Positions 10,056 to 41,347 of a stretch of 64,000 nucleotides of DNA are shown here, one piece after another. The notes below the pieces were generated by a model, which was not told where the DNA came from, did not search any database, and saw only the letters and a program-made list of their open reading frames with translations. The position numbers were made by a program, and so were the translations under genes. Source of the stretch: Chiloscyllium plagiosum (Eukaryota); NCBI RefSeq assembly GCF_004010195.1, contig NC_057713.1:104143540-104207539 (forward strand). The letters are read 5' to 3'. The first letter of the stretch is position 1. Each line of letters opens with the position of its first letter.

Positions 10056-10411
10056 ACTGAGATTTACATCTTTGAGGCCCCAAGACAGAGATATGCAGAA
10101 CTGCACACATTATACTGCCAATCAGACTGGGCACCTTTTATTTTTATTCATTCACATGACGTAGGTATCGTTGTTTAGGCCAGTCTTTAATGGCAATCCT
10201 TAATTACCCACAGGGCAGTTACAAGTCAACCACAATGCTGTGGATCTAGCGTCATATGAATGCCAATAGATGTTAGTGAACCAGATGGGATTTTTATGAC
10301 AATTGACAGCGATGTGGTCACTATTAAATCATCTCTTTATTTCAGATTTTATTGAAATCAAATTTTACCATCCCACCTTGGTGGGATTTGAACCTGTGTT
10401 CCCAGAACATT

Positions 10412-11327
10412 CTGGTCTGGTCCTCACCTACCACCCCACCAATCTCCATGTACAGCGCATCATCCGCCGTCACTTCCGCCACCTCCAAACAGACCCCAGC
10501 ACCAAGGATATATTTCCCTCCCCTCCCCTATCAGCTTTCCGTAGAGACCACTCACTCCGCGACTCCCTTGTCAGATCCACACACCCCACCGACCCAACCT
10601 CCACTCCCGGCACCTTCCCTTGCAACCGCAGGAGGTGCAACACTTGCGCCCACACCTCCCCCCTCACTTCTCTCCAAGGCCCCAAAGGAAACTTCCATAT
10701 CCGCCACAGATTCACCTGCACCTCCACCCACATCATCTACTGCATCCGCTGCAGCCGGTGTGGCCTCCTCTATATTGGGGAGACAGGCCGCCTACTTGCG
10801 GAGCGATTCAGAGAGCACCTCTGGGCCACCCGGACGAACCAACCCAACCAACCTGTGGCACAGCATTTCAACTCCCCCTCCCACTCCACCGAGGATATGC
10901 AGGTCATTGGACTCATCCACCGCCAAACCACAACAACCCGACGGTCGGAGGAGGAACGTCTTATCTTCCGACTGGGAACCCTCCAACCGCAGGCGATGAA
11001 CTTGGACTTCACCAGTTTCTTCATCCCCCCTCCCCCCACCTTGTCTCAGCCAGATCCCTCCAGCCCGGCACCGCCTTCCTGACCTGCAGTCTTCTTCTTG
11101 ACCTCTCCGCCTCCATCCTACTCCGACCTATCACCCTCACCTTGACCTCTTTCCACCTATCACATTTCCAATGCCCCTCCTCCAAGTCCCTCCTCCCTAC
11201 CTTTTATCTTCTCCTGCTGAACACTCTCTGCTCATTCCTGAAGAAGGGCCTGTGCCCGAAACGTCGAATCTCCTGTTCCCTGGATGCTGCCTGACCTACT
11301 GTGCTGTTCCAGCAATAAAGTTTCAAC
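10412..11327 (+). mobile_element. Young 5'-truncated Penelope-like retroelement with GIY-YIG endonuclease ORF end
   Basis: Open frame to 11082 with IIYCIRCSRCGLLYIGETGRLLAERFREH (GIY-YIG). 13-bp TSD TTCCCAGAACATT (10399-10411 and 11328-11340). Confidence 0.93.
11234..11269 (+). ncRNA. Minimal type I hammerhead ribozyme motif of a Penelope-like element
   Basis: AUUC-CUGAAGA-A-GGGC(CUGU)GCCC-GAAAC-GUC-GAAU: stem I AUUC/GAAU, conserved core, 4-bp stem II, palindromic loopless helix III (ACGU). Confidence 0.75.
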
Positions 11328-14806: not shown

Positions 14807-14927
14807 GATTGATAAACCAAAAGCCTTTTCCATGTTGCTGCACACAGCTGATATCAGCCATCCAACGAAAGCCTGGGAGATGCATCATCGCTGGACCATG
14901 GCATTGTTGGAGGAATTCTTCAGACAG
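14807..14927 (+). CDS. PDE1C: PDE1 (PDE1C-like) internal coding exon, catalytic domain
   Basis: ttgcag| ... |gtaag. 121 nt, phase 2-0. Translates IDKPKAFSMLLHTADISHPTKAWEMHHRWTMALLEEFFRQ (HxADISHP motif) and joins in frame to the previous exon. Confidence 0.95.
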
Positions 14928-15089
14928 GTAAGATCTCTAGTCAGCACAGAGTTTTAAAAAAACATTAGACTGACGGGCACTTACGTTTTAACTGAGAGTA
15001 ATGTTTATATTTGTATAGTGATGGGTCAGCATAACCATCCCCACAGAAGACTGATGAGTGTAGGAGATATTGGGTGAAAAGAAGGTCAA

Positions 15090-16680: not shown

Positions 16681-17939
16681 CAGAAGAACTATGAAAATCA
16701 CAATTTTCCAACACAGAAAGATAGTTCCTGAGTGAAATGTCCTTTTTTTAACACATCAGGTGTCATATGCAAGAGAGTTTTAAAAGTTCTCAAGTCTTTC
16801 AGTGAATTAGTGAATGTTTGATTGGGTAGAAATTTGAGGGGATAAGTGAGTTAGCATGTGGGAGCACAAGTGTGATGTTAGTTGAGGGCTTATCAGTTTT
16901 GGGGATGGTTATGTTGAGGAAGGTTGGTTGGAAGGACAGTCATGTCGGGTCAGAAAGGCTACGGGTCGGGGACTAGTCATGTCATATCCTTGGGTAGTTG
17001 GGTCAATTTGGAGAGGACTGTTGGATTGGGGGAATAGTCAGATCAGCTCAGAGATTTTTTAGAGTGGCAGTTGTGTTGTTCACACTGACCACTTTTGAAA
17101 TAACCAAGTATTAATCATTGCACTGTTTTCTGGGTAAGTATCCAGACAAGTCCTGTGCATCGAGCCCAAATTTTACGGAGCTTAGTGCGAGAGACAATTG
17201 CGGAGGTCAATACAGTGGAAATGACTACTAGAAGTTTGTTTCCTGTGCAATTTTATCACCTATATGTCAGGACTCCTGTTGATCTCTGAATCACATCTTC
17301 CTAATTAAGTCGAGATTTAGACCTAATGAAAACCGGAAGATTTAGGCTTTTCCAAAGAATTCTGTATTATTATTTATATGAACAGATGCTTCTACAACAG
17401 CTCCCCAGAGTCCTAAAGATTCTGCCTGATCAAGTGTGGTTGTATTTATTAATATCATGCAACAAAAGTTGGTTTTATCTAAGATCAATGCCTTTTCTGT
17501 GGATATTCAACTCTCTCCCAGTAATCACTTGGTATGCCTAAAACAAAGAGGATTGATGGCAGTAAATGACTCTGAACAATACCAACCCAGTACCACATTG
17601 TGGTAGAGGTGGTTCCGGCAATGGTCATTTGGAAAATGTCACATGATTGCTGTGGTGTTATCTGGCCCCCACTCCAAAAAAAAGGAAATCCAGAAAACCA
17701 GAAGAAAAGTAAACAAAAATTAAGCAAGTGAATTTAACATTTCAGGGGCATTACTGCTTTTAGAAGACACATCCAGTCAGCACCTGAAAGTATCAGGAGT
17801 GGTTGTTGGGGAAAATACCACAGTGTGCACAAGGCTTAGCAAACTTAGTTTTGCAAGGTTCCTGAGCCTTATTTATGTAATAACATTAGAAACCAACATG
17901 AGCAGCTCAATTTCAGTTCTTCATTTCATCTTATTGCAG

Positions 17940-18021
17940 GGTGACAAAGAGGCTGAACTGGGGCTTCCTTTCTCTCCACTCTGTGATCGTAACTCAACAA
18001 TGGTAGCTCAGTCCCAAATAG
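17940..18021 (+). CDS. PDE1C: PDE1 (PDE1C-like) internal coding exon
   Basis: Polypyrimidine tract, then ttgcag| ... |gtagg. 82 nt, phase 0-1. Translates GDKEAELGLPFSPLCDRNSTMVAQSQI(G), including the invariant substrate-binding Gln region. Confidence 0.95.
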
Positions 18022-18839
18022 GTAGGACGCTCAAATACAGGTATATCTTTATCAAAAAGGATTCAATGTACAATCTATGGTTAAATTAACAGGAAACAGC
18101 TTAAAGCATAATGTCATATATAAGCATCTACTTTTATTGAAAAAAATCGATCATCAGGAAATTCAACTCCATTTCTACTATTCTCCAAATCAGGAACAAG
18201 AGCCTGGGCTAGATTTGGAGTCTATTTGAATATCACTGTATGGGAGAAATGAAACGAAACCTGACAAGAACTCCCCTCTGCTTCCTCCATATTGTATTGA
18301 TGTTTGAAAACAATCTACTGGAATAATTAAAAACTAGTATTTATTGTATTAAAGATAAAAAACAAAATCAAAAAAGACAGAACAATTTACCTTAAGGGGG
18401 GAATGAAAGTATGCATTATTACTAGTCAGAAGTTGCAGTATAGAAATGTTATAATGTTAACTTTGGCTTGTTCAAAACTTGTATACTTTTTTCATGGCAT
18501 TTGATTGATGCTTCAAACATGTGTTATTCACAAATTGTTTATGTATGAGTATATACAGTACAATGGTTTGATCATTCAATTTATTACTGTTGACTGTAGA
18601 TGTTGATATGGTAATGTAAAACTAAGAAGAAAAGCTGCTGCTCCCTGGAAAGTAATTTTTCGTAATGCACACTTCTTAGGATTTCTACTTCGACATGATT
18701 ATTTAACATGCTTAATCTAAATTCATCTTCCTCTTACTTCAAAGGATGTACATACTTCTTTCAAATGAGTCTCCATTAAGGTGGAATGTAAAGAAACTTC
18801 ATGTAAAAATCAAAGATAAGCCTGCCCGTAGTCTTACCA

Positions 18840-25612: not shown

Positions 25613-26184
25613 GTTAGTCAGAAACTAAGAATTGAGTCATCTGCTCATTTCCAATGATTGGAAACATTTCAAGAACTGTTCATTTTTATTAATGGTCATC
25701 TAGCTCGTGAAACAGAAGAGTATTCCTTCCTTTACAAGCCACTTTCCCAAATTACTGCTGAAATTGGTAAAATGAACTGGCATTCAGTTTAAAGGAGCTT
25801 GACTCTGCACTCTTGGGCGCTGCTGGTGAAAATTAATGAAGACACGCGTAGAAAGGGACAGTTTTAAAGTGGAATGGAGGAATTTCCACTCTGATCTGAT
25901 TGATTTTAAATTGAAAGCATCCAAGGCGTCTGCCTCAAAATATATGGTCTGTTTAAATATGCAGATTGAACTCTAATTTATCACTGGGGTCCCAGTTTAA
26001 ATTGAAATGTTAATGGTTATGCAATGCTGACTGTCTGGCAAACTAACCCCATGAAGCGCTGTATTTCAGCAAGGTAATTTTAAAACATTTTGGCATTTCC
26101 TACAGGCAGCCTCTTTGTAAGGCAGTGGTTCCTGCTGTTTTTGGGGGCCAGTCCACATGGCTCTGAGACATGGGTCAGTCATTT

Positions 26185-26866
26185 CATATTAAGGTCCAGT
26201 AAATTTCTAGCAATGTCCTACTGGTGATTTGCCACAGAGTGCCACTCTGATAGGCAGATCTTCTTGCCTGCATGTGAATGAGGACTGAGCATATCTAAGT
26301 GACTTGATCAACATGGGCGGCACGGTGGCACAGTGGTTAGCACTGCTGCTTCACAGCGCCAGAGACCCGGGTTAATCTAATCTAATCTAATTTACCTAGA
26401 CCCTGCACAAACAGAATATTATTTAAAACTGAGGCTCACCCCTCAGCGAAAATCACTGCATGTAGATGTGTGAACATAAGAAAACAGGAGCAGGCAGAGG
26501 CCATTTGGTCTTTTGAGCCTGCTCTGAAATTGAATAAGATCTGCCTGATCTGATTGTGGCCTTAACTTCATTTTCCTGACTGCTTTATAACCTTTGACTT
26601 CCCTGGCAATCAAAATCTGTCTCACTCAGCCTTGAGTATATTCAATGACTCACACTGCTCACCGGTGAAGAAAATTCTAAGCACCAAACTCCTCAGAGAA
26701 AAAAATTTCCTCATCTCCATCTGAAATGAGAGATTCCATATTAAGGTCCAGTAAATTTCTAGCAATGTCCTACTGGTGATTTGCCACAGAGTGCCACTCT
26801 GATAGGCAGATCTTCTTGCCTGCATGTGAATGAGGACTGAGCATATCTAAGTGACTTGATCAACAT
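26185..26866 (+). repeat. Perfect 130-bp direct repeat (26185-26314 = 26737-26866)
   Basis: Base-by-base identical from catattaaggtccag to gacttgatcaacat, enclosing 422 bp. Confidence 0.97.
26315..26391 (+). mobile_element. Mini HE1 SINE: tRNA-like head fused to (TAATC)n tail
   Basis: gggcggcacggtggcacagtggttagcactgctgcttcacagcgccagagacccgggt directly followed by taatctaatctaatctaat. CpGs are retained. Confidence 0.85.
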
Positions 26867-30105: not shown

Positions 30106-30280
30106 ACTGAGACAAAATTTCTTAACATGAACCTACAAAGAGTTTGAGAAATGTAGGAAGAAAGGTACAGAATAAATGTATGCAATTGTAACTTAATGGC
30201 TAAAATAAGTTAATATTTGAGAAGTAATTAATGTTCACAAATACTCTAACAATGCCACGATGTTTTGTTTGTTTTATTAG

Positions 30281-30526
30281 ATACTGAAGAAAAAAACAGA
30301 AAAGAAGGTGAAGAAAAAGAAAGAGCAGAAGCCCAGGCAGTACTCGAGAAGAAAGAGCGTCGCTTTCTCAGAGAACAAATGGTGCCACAGGAAAAAGACA
30401 ATGAAGAAAACAAAAAAGATCATAGAACGACTTTCATCTCGACTCCTAAGAAGGATGTAAGCTTTTGGAAAACTGAGAAAGGAACTGGCACTGTATCAGA
30501 AGGCAGAGCACGGCTTATGCAGAATG
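30281..30526 (+). CDS. PDE1C: PDE1C-like coding exon, charged C-terminal extension
   Basis: gttttattag| ... |gtgag. 246 nt, phase 1-1. Translates (D)TEEKNRKEGEEKERAEAQ...RARLMQN, paralleling the PDE1C exon EEKAKKEAEEKAR...QQQNG. Confidence 0.85.
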
Positions 30527-31904
30527 GTGAGTCACAGCTTCTTTACATTTGCATGATCAAATCTGAGATTTTTGTACTTCCAGCCTCTTAGCACAGACTT
30601 TTACAATGCAGCAGCAAGTCATTCGGCCCATTACATTTACACCTGCTGTGAGATGGCTGGATAATTAGTGCCTACCACTCTGCTCTTTCCCACTATTTCA
30701 ATGTTTCAGGTATTCGAATCAGTGAACTTTTGATATGCATGAATGACCTGGACTGTAGGTGGCCTTTCTTAAACTCTCCAAATTACAAAATGGAAATATA
30801 ATAAAGAATGAGAAGGATAATCACAGTCCTCAGGAGGACGTAAATTGGTGAAATGTTCAGACACTTGGCTGATGCAATTTAAAGCAGATTAACATTCAAT
30901 CAACCTCTATTCTTCCCTGCCTCACAACAGCATGTTTAAAGAAAGCACAAGATATTTGATGGAGTATCTAATTAAACAGAATTTATTGATTATGTATGTC
31001 TGATTGGTCCAACTAAATAAGGAAGGTTGGATTATATGGAGCTTGTAAGCGCAGCGTGTGGGTGACTGAATTTGGTGGGATGTGAGATTTTCATTTCTGA
31101 CAGCAGGTTGAGAGGCAGAGATTAAACTTGCAGTGTTTTTGTAATGTGTTGGGCCTCATGCTGTTCTATGGTAGATTTGTACTTGTAATACATTGCAATG
31201 CCATGAATACTTATTAACTTTTCTTTTCAATTATGCCACACAGTCAAGGTAATGTCAGCAGTGAATGAGGCACCTAGGTCACCTTAGTGTACAAGTGTGT
31301 AATTGTGCAGGTTTGTCTGAGGTTAGCAGTCTGCCTTGTTGAACTCTGTGGCACATGGAAGCAGGTGTGGGAGCAGACAAAGAGCAGCTTGCATGGAGAC
31401 TCAGGACTGGAAAGGGCAAGTCTTTAGTGAGCAAGGCTTAAGTGAAAGGAAAGGGTTGGGGTTCAGGACAGTGGAAGAGTGGAAAGGAAAGCCAAGGAAA
31501 CACAATGCCATGATATTGCATATATCTATGATCAAATAAGTATGCACATTTAAGAGAATCAAGTCATAAGCATATGAATTATGACCAGAGTGAGACACTT
31601 GGCCTCACAATGATGTTCTGCCACTAAGATCACAGCTGATCTGATTACTTCACATTTCTGCCTATTCTCTACAATATTCCTTCTCCATGTTTATGAAGAC
31701 TCCATCTACCTCTACCTTAAAAACGTTGTTCAAGGACTCTTCATCCACCACCTTCTGAGACAAAAGGTTCAAAAACTCAGCGTAGTCCTGCAAGAATTTC
31801 ATTGAAGGAAATAAATCTGCCATCCTTCCATGATCTGGCCTATCTGTAACTCAAGGCACACAGTGATGTGGTTGACTTTTAACTGCCTTCTGAAAGGGCC
31901 TGAT

Positions 31905-34080: not shown

Positions 34081-35206
34081 TCTTTGACTCCATAGTACAA
34101 GGAGGTTAGAGTAACATAGTCATAGTAATATATAAATACCAGTGGTTTGGGAATTTTTTGCCCTGGGGTGTCCATTTAGGTTGCTTCAAGTGCTGTGACA
34201 CAGCCCTCCCTATGGCTTTGTCCATAGAAACTGAAGGGAAATGTAATTAATGTTGGTGGTGGTTTATGGGTTGGGGTGATTTGGGGGCCATCGCCACAGG
34301 ACATAAACACAGCAAGCTATTCCTCACAACTGGGGATTGTAGGCTGGGAGAAGCAGGGATAACAGTTGTGGAAAGAGGCAACAATGTCTAGATGGGGGAT
34401 GCAGTAAATCATGGAGGAGAAGGGGTCATGTGATAGGGAGCTTGACCATGGTGCACCTTGGCTTCAGGGAGAACAGAGTTAATGTATGGCCACATCTGTA
34501 TGATCACCACATCTGTCAGCAACTGGGCAGGAAAGGTAGGCAGGTACAGGCTCATTTAGATAGGTTGATTGTAGACCTGGGGTGGTGTGAGGCCAATTGG
34601 GCATTACAGGTTTGGGCTGCCAGGGAAGAGATTTGGATGTTTGTGTCTCAACAACATGCAGAGGCTGAAAGCCACTGGTTGAAGAGTGTTACTGTCACCT
34701 TCCATTATGCTGGAAATCACAATGGGGAAGAAAATGGGCCACATCCACACTCAGACTGGGTAGTGTGTCTCATCCTGAGGGAGATAAGGTAGCAGGACCT
34801 ACAGATATTCGAGCTTTTAAAGGGAAAGGATATTATACACAGACCCATTCATTGTACAGAACACAGACCGGTGGGTTCCCAAATCCCTGGCCAGCCTAAT
34901 GTATTGCTGTGCACCTTGCTGATGCAGACATTACTGACCATCTCATTCATGCAAACACATTTGGACACAGAGGCTGAGGAAGGAAAGGGATACTGGAGGA
35001 CAAGAGGCAATGATGTCAGCAGCACTCACTGTCTTGTCTACACCTTGTTTCTCTTGCTTCGGCATGCTGCAGCAGGCTAAAACCAGATATCTATCTATGG
35101 TACATCCTATGAGGACATGAAGTTAAGCCTCATTGTGGAATGATTATCTTCAGCACTGTAGAAAGACAAAAAGCAAGCTTTCAGATCAAAGCTGTGCCAC
35201 CTATTA

Positions 35207-35531
35207 TGTGATGAGATATGCCTTTAAGAGGGATTTGTTTTGTTCTTTTTCTCTTGAAAACAAGTGCTGTAAAGCTGGCGCTGAGGTGTCTGCTCCAGGT
35301 AAAGCTTTGGGTTTCTATTAAAAGAAAAAAGAAGCATGAGTGGGTGGAGTCAGATGCACATAGACCCAGGGCTTTAGTTTTGCTTTTGCTTGTTGAAGTT
35401 TGGTTTTGGAATGACTAATTGAATCGCATCTTGGATACCAGCACCTTACACTTGCCTTTAAATAAGTTAAAAGTTAGAGTCTAGGCTATCTCTGTGATAT
35501 GATTTGGGGGCATTCGGTCTGTTCCATGGCA
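35207..35531 (+). repeat. 5' LTR (internally deleted)
   Basis: Starts tgtgatgagatatg and ends ...ccatggca. Aligns to both ends of 40706-41347 but lacks about 300 bp of the middle. Confidence 0.8.
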
Positions 35532-35552: not shown

Positions 35553-37206
35553 CAAAGTCTCTACTTCCTGGTTGGTTCAGGATTATTGGACTCAAAGAAA
35601 GTGAATGGTGAGTGTTGGCGTTCTCTTTTCAGTTGTTGCATTCGGTTGGTTCAAATATGGTGTGCTCCTATAATAATGGCTCTTTTAGAGGCGGAGAATT
35701 TCCTGGGTGTGAGAAAAACCACTTGGGGTGGTTGACAGAAGGTGAGTAAGACAAAGCTTGTGGAACTGGCAGTCAAGCTGAGGTTGAGGCTATCTGTGAA
35801 GAAAGGGGAAATAATTGCAGTGATAGCTCAGCATTTATAATTGCCAAAAATGCAATTGGAGTAATTGGAGATGCTAAAATTTGATTACAAATGAAAAAGA
35901 GCTTGAATGCCAAAAGGAAATGAAACAGTTTGAGTTATTATTGAATGCTAAAGAAAAAAAAATAGGTCTAGCAGAATAAAGGAATAAAAAGAGGCAAGAA
36001 AGGGATAAAGAGAAGAACAGGAGAAAGAGAACTTATGAACTTCGGGGAAGTTGGAACTGAAAAGTTAACATTGACTTCAAATGACGGAAGTGCAAGTGAA
36101 AGATGGGATTAGTGATTAGGACAGTGATGGAGACGAAGTACATTGTAGCCAAAAGTTATCTGGGGATCTATTTAAATATGTCCAAACATTACCAAAGTTC
36201 AACGAGAAGGAAGTAGAAGCCTTTTTTCATTTCACTTGAGAAAGTGGCTAAACAAATGAAATGGCCACCAGCCATGTGGGTATTGTTGATCCAAACAAAA
36301 TTGTTTGGTAGGGCTAGTGAGGTATTTGCATCTCTATCAAAGGAGGTATCTGGGGAGTATGATGAAAATAGATCAAGCATATGATGCTCTGAGAGAGATG
36401 ATTATTTTGGAGGAGTTCAAAAGTTCACTTCCTGAAGTAGTGAGAACTCCTGTGGAAGTGTAGACAGTTAAAACTGCAAGATAAGCAGGAGAGTTGACAG
36501 TTGATTATAAGTTGGTTCATAAATCAAATTTTGGCTTCCACAATAAATTTTAATCTATGAGGGATAGAAATTGGGGAAAAGAGGAATCCTCAGGTTGTAA
36601 GGGAAAAGGAGATCTCATTTAAGGTAGCAAAGATAGTTTACCACAGGTAAATCAATGAGGGGGAAGAGAAGTAAAAAAAAACTCGGGTGTTCTCATTGTG
36701 ATGAAGTAGGCCGCATAAAGTCGCAGTGTTGGTAGTTTATAAAAAGCACTAGGAAGATGGATGTGGGAAAATAGAATAAGCCAGTGTGTTTTGTTAAAGA
36801 GGCAAAGAAAAGCACAGGGGAAGTTAAAAAAGCTACAAAAATATGTCCAACACAGCCAGAGGTTGGTGTTAAGAAAGTGCCAGATCTCTTTAAAGCATTT
36901 ACTTGCGTGGTTAAGGTTTATTCATGTATACAGAAGGCGTAGGTAAAGAAATTAAGATTTTAAGAAATATGGGGGCAAGTCAATCTTTGATGGAGAGAGA
37001 TGAGGAGTTATGTAATTCAAAAGGAGTATTGTCAGGAAAGGTAGTAATAAGTGGAATTCATGCTGAGAAGGGCAGTGTTCCATTATATAAATTAACGTTG
37101 GAGAGTCTGGTGAAAAATGTGAATTGATGGTAGGAATAACAGAGAAATTCTCTGTTCTGGAGATACAATTTATTCTTGGTAATGATATAGCTGGATCACA
37201 GGTGGC

Positions 37207-37552
37207 AGCATCAGGATACTGGACTTTAATAATATAGTGACAGTCAGGGGCAGGGCACCATTTTAACAGTTGATTGCACTCTACAAAACCGTTGGTTATT
37301 AAATGCTGGTACTTCAACATGATCTCAGAATCTGTGATCAAATGTATATCTGTGTTTTTCATCAACCAGGATATCACAGCCGTGAGCTGGGCATGATAAA
37401 TTCTGCCCCATACCTTTTTCTATGATCTTCATAGTTAAGTATTCATTCCAGCACTGTACAGAATTTGTGACCACATTCTCAGTCTGTGAAGTACTCAATG
37501 ACCTCATTAACCCCCTGGATACACTCCAACATGTGTTAGATGATCTGGTCTA
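37207..37552 (-). pseudogene. ARIH1: Processed (intronless) ARIH1/ariadne-1 RBR E3 ligase fragment inserted in a Gypsy element
   Basis: Minus strand reads [107 protein letters not shown]. This matches ARIH1 RING1-IBR, with stops and frameshifts and no introns. Confidence 0.92.
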
Positions 37553-39256
37553 CTGTGGTTGAAAAACCGGTGGAAATTCAAACAAAAGAGGTGTTACAGT
37601 AGTATGTCCTGGGATTTTTTTCCTGACTGTGTGGTAACAAGGTCACAAAGTCGCAAGTTGAAACGGGAGGAGAAATCAAGGAGTAAACATAAGGAAGTTG
37701 AAATTCACTTATCAGAAAGTATGGCTGAGAGAGAAAAACACAAGGGCAGGATGAGGACGATATGGATATTTTTAGTGCAGAGAAATTAGCTGAGTTAAAA
37801 CAGGAAGATTGAAAAAAATACAGCAGTTGTATCAAAAACATATACAGAAGAGGAATCTGAGTGTAACCCAGAATGATACTATATTAAAAACAAAGTTTTA
37901 ATGAGGAAATGGTGATCATCACACACTCAGGTGGATGAAAAATGGGCAGAAGTTCATCAAGTTCTAATACCTGTGGGGTTCTAGGATAAGAGGTGCTGTG
38001 GATAGCACATGAATTACTAGTAGGAGGTCTGGGAGTAAGTAAAACACAAGCCAAAAAAGAAGAGCATTATTATTGACCTGGACTGCAAAGGATGTGATTG
38101 AATTTTGCTGGACATGTCACATGTTTAAGGTAGTAGGAAAACCATAAGGCGGTGTTAGATCCAACACCCTTAATACCCCTTCAAACATTTGAGGAACATT
38201 TTAACATGGTCTTAATTATTTGCACAGGACCTCTTCCTAAAACAAAAAGTGGGACTCAGTACTTGTTGACTATAAGAGATGTGACAACTCGATTTTCAGA
38301 GACCATTCCATTTTGCAGTATCGCGGTTAAAAGGAATGTAGAAGAGCTACTCAATTTTTTGACTAGGTAAGGACTGCTCACAGAGATACAACTGGATCAA
38401 GCATCACATTTTACCTTAAACTTATTCAAGGAAGTTATGGATAGCTTAGGAATAAAAAAAATCGGACAATGAGGAAGTGCTCAAAAATTGGGATAAATTG
38501 TTGAGTTACCTTCCAGAGAAAAGTCAAAATGACCTGAAAGAGTTATTTACAATCATGTGGAGAGATGTGTGGTCATAAGCTGTGAAGTACCAAACAAATT
38601 ATACATGATGTAGACTTGGGAAATTCTAATTAAGGAACATCCTTATTGGCTTAACCCTCTCAAATTGACACAGGTTCAAAAAGAAATTGAAAGCAGGTTC
38701 AGAATTGACATAATCGAAGTGAATTGCATCGAAAGGAGCTCAGCCAAGTAATGATGCCAAAAACAAATGGTACCCAATGATTATGTGTGGACTATCGCAA
38801 AGTCAATGCATTCATGAAATCTGATTCATATCCTGTTCCACATTTGGAAGATTTTATTGAGAAGGTGGGACAAGCAACTTATATTTGCACATTGGACTTA
38901 CTCAGAGGATACCTTTATCAGAAAAAGGGAAGGAAAATTTGGCTTTCATGACACCCAGAAGTCTTTACCAGTTTAAAGTCATGCCATTTGGTGTGAAGAA
39001 TGCACTAGCCACGTTTCAAAGACTAACCAATAAGGTAATTTCAGGATTACCCAACTGTATGGTGTGCATAGATGGTCTGGTGATTTTTAGAAGGAATGTT
39101 TGGAGCATCTAGCAGAATTATTCAATTGACCTCAGGAGGTGATAAACCTGGCTAAGAGTGAGTTCGCAAAAACTCAAATTACGTTCCTATATCTTGGGAC
39201 ATGGACACATGGCCCCATGGGATGTGAAAACAAAGGGGATTGGGGAATTTCCCATA

Positions 39257-39399
39257 TCTGGAGCCTCCAGGTATGTCCGCAGCCTCCAGCAACGGACCTC
39301 CCTCCGGATCCTCCGCTCCACGCTTGCAGCCATGCGCCGGTACCTACATTCCCTGCTTCAACTTTGATCTCCAGCATCTGCAGACCTCACTTTCTCCTC
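39257..39399 (+). mobile_element. Short Penelope-like element fragment inserted in Gypsy RT
   Basis: 12-bp TSD GAATTTCCCATA (39245-39256 and 39400-39411). Ends with ccagcatctgcagacctcactttctcct, shared with other PLE fragments here (e.g. ~21810). Confidence 0.7.
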
Positions 39400-40095
39400 G
39401 AATTTCCCATACCACCAATGAAGAGGGAAATAATACAATTCTTGGGACTGAGTGATTTTATAGAAAATTCATAACTAATTTATACCGAATTTTCTCAGTG
39501 TGGTTGCTCCACTGACTAACCTGTTGAAGAATTGAAGAAAATTTCAGTGGATGAAGGAATGTCAGAAAGCATTTGACAGCCTGAAAGCTGTGTTGACTGC
39601 TTCTAGCACCTAACTAGCAACACTTAACTGTGCAAAGCTATTGGTGCGAGTGATGTGGGTGTTGGTGCTATATTCTTGCAACAAGAGAATAGAAAGACCT
39701 ATTGGACAGTTTTCCAGAAAGTTGAATGTTCATCAAAGAACTATTCCACCATTAAAAAAGAGATCTTTAGTTTGGTGTTGGTGTTGCAAAATTTCAACAT
39801 TTATGTTGCCAGCAATGTATTAGAGTCAATTGTATATACAGATCATAACCCCGTAATATTTTTGGAAAAAATTAAGGATAAAAATACCAAACTGTTTAGA
39901 TGGAATTTATTGTTACTACCATTCAATTTGAAAATTATACAAGTGGCCGGATGCATTATCACAACTTGGATGAAGGAAGACAGTAATTTTCATGTGTGGA
40001 AAAAATGGACTGAGATGAACTGTGATATTGAATGTTTCGTGGAATGTATATGGGGTGTATGTTTATACATAATATACATGTATAAAGTAATGTAG

Positions 40096-40614
40096 GGCCT
40101 CCTGCACCACCACTCCCTCAACACCCGACGCCTGGAGGAAGAACGCCTCATCTTCCGCCTTGGAAAACTTCAACCCCAGGGCATCAATGTGTCCTGGGCC
40201 TCCTCCACCGCCACTCCCTCACCTCCCGATACCTGGAGGAAGAACGCCTCATCTTCCACGTCGGAACACTTCAACTCCAGAGCATCAATGTGGACTTCAC
40301 TAGTTTCCTCATTTCCCCTCCCCCCACCATACCCCAGTTCCAACCTTCCAGCTCAGCACCATCCTCATAACCTGCCAATCTTCCTTCCCACCTATCCACT
40401 CCACCCTCCTCTCTGACCCATCATCCCCACCCCCATCCACCTATTGTACTCTTTGCTACCTTCTCCCCAGCCCCCCCCCCATTTATCTCTCCATCCTGGA
40501 GGCTCCCTGCCTTCATTCCAGATGAAGGACTTTTGCCTGAAATGTCGATTTTCTTGCTCCTCAGATTCTGCCTGGCCTGCTGTGCTTTTCCAGCACCATT
40601 CTAATCTAGACATA
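40096..40614 (+). mobile_element. 5'-truncated Penelope-like element in the Gypsy 3' region
   Basis: GIY-YIG C-terminal coding remnant (RRLEEERLIFRLG) plus a 3' repeat similar to 11040-11327. 8-bp TSD TAATGTAG (40088-40095 and 40615-40622). Confidence 0.85.
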
Positions 40615-40705
40615 TAATGTAGCGTACTAATAGTGAAAGAGTAAAGGTTTTGAAAATTAAGCCAACTTTGTATGTTGATGGTTCATTCTTTTTTAAGGGT
40701 GGAGA

Positions 40706-41347
40706 TGTGACAAGATATGGCTTTGAGAGAAATTGGTTCTGTCCTGTTTTTCTTGAAAACAAGTGTTGTAAACCTGGTGATAATGTGCCTGCCACAGGGA
40801 AAGCAGAGTAAATAGCATTGAGTTTGTTTTAAAGTAGACAAAAGAAGCATGAGTGGGTGGAGTCAGGCTCACACTGACCTCGAGTTTTAGTTTTTGCTTT
40901 CAGTTATTGGAGTCGAAGCTTCTTGATGCAGCTCTCTCTCTGCTGCCAGAAAAAGCTTGAGTTCTCACTTGGCTGCTTGATTCATGCGTTTGGTATTCCT
41001 TCTCCTGGACTAGGGAAGATAGCAAGTGAGGGAAATCTGTTTTGCTTAATTTACCTTTGCTGAGGGTGTGTTTAAGGAATGCTGCTATATTGGAATAGTT
41101 GATGAGTAGCAGTTAAATAATATATTATTTTGTTAAGTATTATGATAAATTTAAGGTTATGCCAATTTTTCTTCGCTTGTATTTTAATGGTGGTGTAAGA
41201 ATAAAATTTGTTTTGCATAATGAGTAGTTTGACCAATCAAATAACATCAGGAATGCAGCACCTTACACTTTCCTTTAAATGAGAGATCTTTTAGGGTCTA
41301 GGCGATCCCTAAATATATCCTATGGGGCTTTGGTCTAGTCTATAACA
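40706..41347 (+). repeat. 3' LTR preceded by polypurine tract
   Basis: PPT aagggtggaga (40695-40705), then tgtgacaagatatg ... tataaca. Contains AATAAA at ~41200. Confidence 0.85.

What the first reader, a model, noticed from the sequence alone, without database searches (positions are those of the whole stretch)
37207..37552. Fossil cDNA of an exon-skipped ARIH1 transcript
Seen: on the minus strand, ...[14 protein letters not shown] runs directly into YFTD*ECGHKFC at 37494/37493. Recalled from human ARIH1: ...HMVECIREVNEVIQ is separated from YFTGLECGHKFC by 71 aa (NPATITRILL...CQICYLNYPNS). As I recall, those two ends coincide with the exon 1 donor and exon 4 acceptor. The later exon junctions in the fragment are also intron-free. 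Inference: the template was a spliced mRNA skipping exons 2-3 in frame, which removes most of the UBA-like region and the first two RING1 cysteines. This would be germline evidence of an ARIH1 isoform with a broken RING1. It could also be the linear by-product of exon 2-3 back-splicing.
Basis: partly seen in the sequence, partly recalled or inferred. Interest (0 to 1): 0.75.

Follow-up and report, generated by a model that had tools for sequence, protein, structure and literature searches.

The report
Fossil of exon-skipped ARIH1 mRNA
A dead 344-base piece of a shark-like genome is an intron-free copy of the ARIH1 ubiquitin-ligase gene that lacks exactly the 71 codons missing from annotated short isoforms in three mammals, so it likely records an old exon-skipped mRNA that was likely patched into a broken retrotransposon copy; a clean example of a known kind of fossil.

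Summary
Observation confirmed. On the minus strand, 37206-37549 matches human ARIH1 residues ~107-125 joined in frame to 197-292; 126-196 (71 codons) are absent. Both gap ends are exon borders: many gene models break there, and parent-like host contigs and one RNA read end within 1-2 bases of the junction. The same junction is annotated in mole-rat, bat and horse isoforms, so the isoform is not new. A chance deletion would do this with p<0.001.

The piece lies antisense inside an old, decayed Gmr1-like gypsy element. It replaces about 9 bases, has no poly(A) or target duplication, appears in one copy, and is shared with a related species. That fits cDNA capture at a DNA break (about 60%) better than LTR template switching (about 27%).

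No shark RNA read crossed the skip junction, though coverage was minimal. The circRNA link is unshown. A skipped protein would lose NEDD8- and E2-binding parts, but nothing shows function. New member of a known kind; interest 0.36.

The parts
37206..37549 (-). ARIH1 cDNA insert, 344 nt, truncated at both ends, no poly(A), no target-site duplication; replaces about 9 nt of the host element
   Evidence: Joints 37205->37550 in empty family copies of runs X1 and X20 with 9 letters between, and loose ends at 37205 in X1, X20, X23; protein matches; no flanking direct repeat above 5 nt
37494..37549 (-). 3' end of ARIH1 exon 1 (human residues ~107-125), stop at 37538-37536; ends in ...VNEVIE as in Callorhinchus
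   Evidence: 13 of 21 residues identical to Callorhinchus over 37556-37494, E 0.012 alone
37493..37494 (-). exon 1 / exon 4 junction (71 codons of exons 2-3 absent, plus the optional 21-codon chondrichthyan cassette)
   Evidence: parent-like pieces end at 37495 (DNA, X1 and X20) and 37494 (RNA read, X21)
37403..37493 (-). ARIH1 exon 4 (residues 197-227, rest of RING1), stop at 37481-37479, 2-nt loss at codon 209
   Evidence: border 227/228 from model P0159
37207..37402 (-). ARIH1 exons 5, 6 and the start of 7 (residues 228-292), fused without introns, 1-nt gain at about 37357
   Evidence: borders from P0004, P0159, P0212, P0217
37550..37556 (.). bases that fit the element and also continue ARIH1-like codons weakly; possible microhomology, not testable without the parent's DNA
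35206..35493 (+). 5' LTR of the host Gmr1-like gypsy element (matched part)
   Evidence: 74% and 80% identical blocks to 40705-40913 and 41256-41310
36386..36523 (+). decayed gag with SCAN-like match
   Evidence: PF02023 E 0.005, below the curated cut-off
37987..38457 (+). decayed integrase (zinc finger and core), upstream of RT
   Evidence: PF17921 E 0.008, PF00665 E 0.0004, both below cut-off; Atlas features 0.94 to an rve cluster
38957..39921 (+). decayed reverse transcriptase and RNase H
   Evidence: PF00078 E 4e-5, PF17917 E 1.5e-14
40705..41310 (+). 3' LTR (matched parts, interrupted)

Best explanation
The 344-base piece is an intron-free, dead copy of ARIH1 that joins exon 1 to exon 4 in frame and sits antisense inside a decayed Gmr1-like LTR element; it was likely reverse-transcribed from an exon 2-3-skipped mRNA and likely captured once, in the germline or early embryo, during end-joining repair of a break in that already-integrated element. 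Shown: sequence match, 71-codon gap, intron loss, orientation, replacement of about 9 element bases, absence of poly(A) and target duplication, presence in a second species. Strongly inferred (about 0.92): the template was an exon-skipped mRNA. Inferred (about 0.6): break-repair capture rather than capture during the element's own reverse transcription. Not known: which reverse transcriptase made the cDNA. The insert itself has no function. The isoform it records would lack the W140/F150 part of the NEDD8-binding UBA-like domain and two RING1 zinc ligands, so it would be unable to load ubiquitin from UBE2L3; most likely it is a minor in-frame skip that escapes nonsense-mediated decay.
For: Exact gap 126-196. 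Identical junction in 3 of 334 proteins examined: XP_029420923.1 (Nannospalax), XP_036312652.1 (Pipistrellus), A0A9L0TED5 (Equus). Gene models break at the same residues: 17 of 70 with the exon-2 start motif have other or no sequence before N126, several with a pyrimidine-rich acceptor read-through; 18 of 89 with the exon-4 start motif differ right before Y197 (I re-scored by eye 1 and 10 regex misses as canonical). In host data a second, parent-like contig ends at 37495 in both DNA runs, as expected if an acceptor AG matches two extra bases, and the one RNA read on the insert ends at 37494 (depth arithmetic). Chance p 1e-4 to 6e-4. For break repair: empty copies are continuous across the site with 9 letters between 37205 and 37550, whereas in Tan et al. 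2016 none of 15 Drosophila LTR-mediated retrocopies interrupted a previously continuous element (PMC5131818 section 5). Doubly truncated spliced-mRNA pieces without introns, one in reverse orientation with 3-bp microhomology, were captured at breaks in mouse zygotes (PMC4516963 passages). Summed contig depth is mostly hundreds to thousands on the flanks against 14-69 on the insert, and one contig per DNA run covers the exon 1 part. Insert divergence about 7-8% (range about 4-12%) against 12% (9-16%) per LTR, so the insert may be younger.
Against: No shark RNA crosses the skip junction: 1 of 19 reads laid from X21 fell on the insert and it broke at the junction; X23 laid nothing there (2% of X21 read, and human-like records are filtered). 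0 of 9 chondrichthyan-cluster models carry the skip. The parent's exon 1 was not recovered from host DNA, so the donor side rests on other species. The depth arithmetic is indirect and summed depth is not a copy number. The age ranges of insert and LTRs overlap at 9-12%, and the insert estimate leaves out five diverged residues at a frameshift and rests on a simulation with random codons. Lying inside an LTR element is automatic under LTR-mediated capture but a chance event under break repair. Microhomology at the ends could not be tested without the parent's DNA.
Confidence: 0.6

Rival explanations
1. Same exon-skipped template, but captured during the element's own reverse transcription: the polymerase switched onto a co-packaged ARIH1 mRNA during plus-strand synthesis (which gives antisense orientation) and back again, and the chimeric element integrated once.
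For: The insert lies inside an LTR element with both LTRs. LTR-mediated retrocopies are partial, lack poly(A) and target duplications, and make up about half of recent retrocopies in zebrafish and chicken (PMC5131818 passages and section 5). Ages overlap. Unchecked AI notes report other mRNA captures by LTR elements in this genome (leads only).
Against: Only about 9 element bases are replaced, unlike the replaced ORF portions in Tan et al.. Minus-strand copy-choice would give sense orientation (established mechanism, my knowledge). No sign of amplified copies with the insert. Point estimate makes the insert younger than the LTRs.
Confidence: 0.27
2. The cDNA came from the normal mRNA and exons 2-3 were lost afterwards by a deletion, or by a polymerase jump or joining of two cDNA pieces, that happened to fall on exon borders.
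For: Deletions do occur here: the organism C contig over 37241-37646 has 26 gap letters. Exon 1 ends in GAG and the optional shark cassette ends in a Gln codon, so a 2-nt AG microhomology is possible.
Against: Needs a 1e-4 to 6e-4 coincidence. The junction equals that of annotated isoforms. Organism C has the same junction, so any deletion is older than that split.
Confidence: 0.04
3. The parent was a duplicated or rearranged ARIH1 gene that had lost exons 2-3 in its DNA, so no alternative splicing was involved.
For: A further unexplained contig covers part of exon 4 (37415-37445) in X1; teleosts have an arih1l paralogue (names). No genome was available to exclude it.
Against: The one host RNA read shows other sequence before exon 4. 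Chondrichthyan models fetched all hold exons 2-3 or begin inside them. No such paralogue appears among the proteins fetched.
Confidence: 0.04
4. Compatible with the first two explanations: the skipped mRNA is the linear partner of an exon 2-3 circular RNA made through the skipped-exon lariat.
For: ARIH1 makes circular RNAs in human sperm and mouse liver (one passage each: PMC6626923, PMC11817265), and the human circle uses the exon 2 side.
Against: The published primers map to residues 134-140 and 245-250, i.e. a circle reaching exon 6 or beyond, not exons 2-3. No ARIH1 entry by name in 3 supplementary files of PMC4165365. No back-splice could be seen because exons 2-3 are not in the window.
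Confidence: 0.25

Closest known systems
RT-product-mediated double-strand-break repair (RMDR), capture of spliced mRNA pieces at breaks in mouse zygotes (Ono et al. 2015, PMC4516963; passages read)
   Same: Short internal cDNA piece (310-800 nt there, 344 nt here), truncated at both ends, introns gone, either orientation, no poly(A), typically no target duplication.
   Different: Here natural, old and fixed, in a cartilaginous fish; the template is an alternative splice form; microhomology is untested.
LTR-mediated retrocopies of animals (Tan et al. 2016, PMC5131818; passages and section 5 read)
   Same: Partial intron-free mRNA copy flanked on both sides by one LTR element with both LTRs; no L1 hallmarks.
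   Different: Element is continuous apart from about 9 nt, the insert is antisense to the element, and no amplified copies were seen.
Annotated ARIH1 isoforms lacking residues 126-196: XP_029420923.1, XP_036312652.1, A0A9L0TED5
   Same: Identical exon 1-exon 4 junction at residue level.
   Different: These are computational gene models of mammals; here the evidence is a genomic cDNA fossil in a shark-like fish, where the skip also spans an optional 21-codon cassette.
Processed pseudogenes as records of splice variants (Shemesh et al. 2006 PNAS; seen only as a reference in PMC5470649; paper not held; content recalled)
   Same: A retrocopy preserves an exon-skipped transcript.
   Different: Those are mostly L1-type processed pseudogenes in human; this one lacks poly(A) and target duplication.
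Gmr1-like Ty3/gypsy LTR retrotransposons (host element)
   Same: Integrase upstream of RT, gypsy-type RNase H, SCAN-like gag, two LTRs, about 6 kb (PMC8220671 passage; PMC11117352 passages).
   Different: Fully decayed; carries the ARIH1 insert; clade membership not tested by a tree.

Membership tests
RNA-derived (processed) gene copy | Introns precisely absent across two or more parent exon borders | tested here: met
   Continuous across 227/228, 246 and 268/269
Exon 2-3-skipped ARIH1 transcript | 3' end of the gap is the exon 4 acceptor | tested here: met
   18 of 89 models break before Y197; host parent-like pieces end at 37495/37494
Exon 2-3-skipped ARIH1 transcript | 5' end of the gap is the exon 1 donor | tested here: met
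   In other species' models: 17 of 70 break at N126, including Carcharodon isoform X3. Not seen in host DNA or RNA
Exon 2-3-skipped ARIH1 transcript | Junction present in RNA of this species | tested here: inconclusive
   1 of 19 X21 reads lay on the insert and it broke at the junction; X23 gave none
LINE-type processed pseudogene | Poly(A) tail and intact 3' end | tested here: not met
   Ends at codon 292 of 557, directly against element sequence
LINE-type processed pseudogene | Target-site duplication | tested here: not met
   Longest shared word 5 nt, not at the junctions; about 9 target bases lost instead
LTR-mediated retrocopy (Tan et al. 2016) | Flanked by one LTR element with both LTRs | tested here: met
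LTR-mediated retrocopy (Tan et al. 2016) | Replaces a portion of the internal ORF; element discontinuous | tested here: not met
   Only about 9 nt replaced versus section 5 of PMC5131818
LTR-mediated retrocopy (Tan et al. 2016) | Microsimilarity (median 6 bp) at switch points | not testable with these tools
   Parent DNA at residues 105-107 and 293-295 not available
Templated cDNA insertion at a DNA break (RMDR type) | Doubly truncated insert, small target loss, no poly(A) or duplication | tested here: met
Templated cDNA insertion at a DNA break (RMDR type) | Target locus existed before the insertion | tested here: inconclusive
   Insert 4-12% versus LTR 9-16% per lineage; no outgroup with the empty orthologous copy examined
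Gmr1-like gypsy element (host) | Integrase upstream of RT with gypsy-type RNase H | tested here: met
   Order SCAN, H2C2, rve, RVT_1, RT_RNaseH on + strand; four of five below curated cut-offs; definition in PMC8220671
Gmr1-like gypsy element (host) | RT groups with Gmr1 in a tree | not tested
   No intact relatives retrieved

The most novel reading that the evidence does not exclude
Skipping of ARIH1 exons 2-3 is a regulated splice form kept since the common ancestor of sharks and mammals and used in the germline. It would make a protein blind to NEDD8 and UBE2L3 that keeps the acidic N-terminus, IBR, Rcat and the Ariadne domain that docks on CUL1-RBX1, and so acts as a built-in competitor that damps ARIH1-primed cullin-RING ubiquitylation; this fossil would be its first trace outside mammals.
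Probability: 0.13. Interest if true: 0.68.

Novelty: new member of a known kind. Interest (0 to 1): 0.36.

Why it matters
As it stands, it is a tidy natural record of two known things: cDNA capture without LINE hallmarks in a cartilaginous-fish germline, and an ARIH1 splice form so far seen only as computational models in mammals. It extends that junction to sharks and dates it to before the split of two related species, about 3-4 times older than that split by divergence. The same junction can recur without selection, because the skip is in frame and the borders are conserved, and other in-frame ARIH1 skips are annotated too (149-246, 228-268, 269-318). It would matter more if the short protein is made and regulated, since ARIH1 works with many neddylated cullin-RING ligases and a form unable to take up ubiquitin could act as an inhibitor. 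That is directly testable in existing RNA-seq and by ordinary biochemistry.

Tried and rejected
No host genome is held, so the parent locus could not be aligned. The 44-residue query found nothing in the large protein search; the representatives search supplied a working query instead. A search for intact relatives of the element with its RNase H piece found none at E<=1e-15 among 72 candidates, so no tree was built. The protease reading near 36960 is by eye only; Pfam gave no hit. Literature: searches listed no paper on an ARIH1 exon 2-3 skip or a shark ARIH1 retrocopy (listings only; subscription journals are not covered). PMC10253871 mentions only linear ARIH1 (passages). Supplements of PMC6626923 and PMC8935690 could not be read and may list ARIH1 circles with coordinates. 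PMC4165365 supplements hold no 'ARIH1' string, but may list circles by coordinates only. A paper id I recalled for human templated-insertion polymorphisms was wrong, so that work is not cited. PMC3670739 passages added nothing used. Earlier scan notes near this place or like this sequence: none. Rejected: LINE-type processed pseudogene (no poly(A), no duplication); family-wide captured gene (empty copies dominate); functional retrogene (two stops, two frameshifts); assembly or contamination artefact (X1 contig 37369-37637 matches with 0 other letters and 1 gap, and organism C has an orthologous contig). No structure or complex prediction was run.

Full report
Observation. The minus strand at 37556-37207 encodes a broken ARIH1 fragment. 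Against human ARIH1 the pieces match residues 105-125, 197-208, 210-242 and 243-292. The codon for residue 125 is followed directly by that for 197, at 37494/37493, so 71 codons are missing in frame. The fragment has two stops and two frameshifts. At several positions it follows cartilaginous-fish ARIH1 rather than human (E125, N213, I221), so it comes from the host's own gene. I do not know the species; 'shark-like' rests on these residues and on unchecked earlier notes.

Are the gap ends exon borders? No host genome was available, so I used three indirect lines. First, gene models. Among 334 proteins fetched, 70 carry the exon-2 start motif; 17 of them have other or no sequence directly before N126, several ending in a pyrimidine-rich read-through such as ...FLLLFSLQ, and one is a Carcharodon isoform. 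Of 89 with the exon-4 start motif, 18 differ directly before Y197 (the script flagged 18 and 28, and I re-scored 1 and 10 of them by eye as ordinary substitutions). Second, 3 of the 334 have the very junction: RefSeq XP_029420923.1 (blind mole-rat), XP_036312652.1 (Kuhl's pipistrelle) and UniProt A0A9L0TED5 (horse), each lacking 126-196. The window aligns to the first without a gap across the junction. Third, host data. Laying four runs on 36950-37850 showed in both DNA runs a second contig that has a Gly codon where the window has Asp200. Bin depths put its end at 37495 in both, two bases past the first codon of exon 4, as an acceptor AG would give. The single RNA read on the insert ends at 37494 and runs on as other sequence. 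This arithmetic is indirect. The parent's exon 1 was not recovered. A random deletion would join two exon borders with probability 1e-4 to 6e-4. I put the exon-skipped template at about 0.92.

A complication specific to this lineage: 5 of 9 members of the chondrichthyan cluster have an extra 21-residue cassette between exon 3 and exon 4. The fossil lacks it too, so the skip ran from the exon 1 donor to the exon 4 acceptor over two or three exons. None of those 9 models has the skip itself.

The fragment lies inside an LTR element on the plus strand: LTR matches at 35206-35493 and 40705-41310, then SCAN-like gag, integrase, RT and RNase H in that order. Integrase before RT marks Gmr1-like gypsy elements (PMC8220671, passage). 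The ARIH1 piece is antisense to it, between gag and integrase. Other family copies are empty: 53, 39 and 4 contigs in X1, X20 and X23 leave the window at 37205, and joints resume at 37550 with about 9 letters between. So 344 bases replaced about 9, with no poly(A) and no target duplication. Summed depth is mostly hundreds to thousands on the flanks and 14-69 on the insert, and one contig per DNA run covers the exon 1 part; this is not a copy number but gives no sign of amplification. A contig of organism C spans 37241-37646, including the skip junction and the right border, with 18 other letters and 26 gap letters; two of its differences restore the Arg-Glu of human residues 119-120. The insert is thus older than that species split. 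Per-lineage divergence is about 2% for the split, about 7-8% (4-12%) for the insert and 12% (9-16%) for the LTRs (the insert figure is a rough simulation from 14 differences in 88 residues).

How it got there. LINE-type retroposition is excluded by the missing hallmarks. In Tan et al. 2016 (PMC5131818; section 5 read; passages) LTR-mediated retrocopies replace part of the element's ORF, and none of 15 interrupted a continuous element. Here the element is continuous and the insert is antisense. Ono et al. 2015 (PMC4516963; passages) recovered doubly truncated, intron-free mRNA pieces at breaks in mouse zygotes, one in reverse orientation with 3-bp microhomology. The anatomy fits that better, and the point estimates make the insert younger than the element. 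Against this, a break has to fall in an LTR element by chance, the age ranges overlap, and a switch onto mRNA during plus-strand synthesis could also give an antisense insert (my inference). I give 0.6 to break repair and 0.27 to capture during reverse transcription. Possible microhomology of a few bases at 37206-37209 and 37550-37556 cannot be scored without the parent's DNA.

What the isoform would be. The Pfam UBA_ARI1 match covers human 111-151 and RING1 starts at 186; both matches vanish in the mole-rat short form, while IBR, Rcat and Ariadne remain. The skip removes W140 and F150, which belong to the NEDD8 interface (PMC3817463 and PMC7904520, passages), and C186 and C189 of the E2-binding RING1. 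Such a protein would not load ubiquitin in the known way. It keeps the Ariadne domain, which binds CUL1-RBX1, so a competitor role is conceivable but untested. The plainer reading is a minor in-frame skip that survives decay: other in-frame ARIH1 skips are annotated as well, and one captured molecule found in a large scan says little about abundance. No shark RNA read crossed the junction, but only 1 of 19 reads laid from X21 touched the insert, X23 gave none, and human-like reads are filtered. For the circRNA idea, the one published primer pair maps to exon 2 and the exon 5/6 border (PMC6626923, passage), a larger circle; an exon 2-3 circle is neither shown nor excluded, and unreadable supplements may bear on it.

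Verdict. The thing is a new example of a known kind, a cDNA fragment captured without LINE hallmarks that happens to preserve an alternative splice form already modelled in mammals. Searches listed no paper on this isoform or fossil. Interest 0.36; the bolder case of a conserved inhibitory isoform has about 0.13 probability.

Noticed in passing
P0245-P0248, P0252 (Callorhinchus X1/X2, Carcharodon X3/X4, one unnamed): Cartilaginous-fish ARIH1 models carry an optional 21-residue Ser/Gly-rich cassette inside RING1, between the second and third zinc ligands; P0247 loses the RING Pfam match that the cassette-free form has. Not seen in the bony-vertebrate models fetched.
   Followed up: partly
window 14817-14930 and 17934-18023, + strand: Two exons of a phosphodiesterase, closest to PDE1B among solved structures. 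The LTR element lies 17 kb downstream on the same strand; whether it is inside the gene was not settled. A Glu/Lys-rich open frame at 30250-30588 may be a later exon (by eye only).
   Followed up: partly
window 26181-26314 and 26733-26866: 134-bp direct duplication at 99.3% identity, 552 bp apart, far younger than the other repeats.
   Followed up: no
window 10300-11082 (+) and about 40050-40600: Penelope-like stubs: GIY-YIG match at the first; at the second a short tandem-like pair 40095-40191 / 40196-40292 at 88% just before the 3' LTR.
   Followed up: no
joints 37203/37205 -> 37617/37619: Many family contigs rejoin the window only at about 37617, suggesting that 37550-37616 of this copy differs from, or is partly deleted relative to, the common family form.
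   Followed up: no
P0270, P0271, P0274, P0277, P0278: Sturgeon and paddlefish BBS4 proteins are clustered with ARIH1 through chimeric gene models (e.g. P0273, 1026 aa), a database clustering quirk.
   Followed up: no
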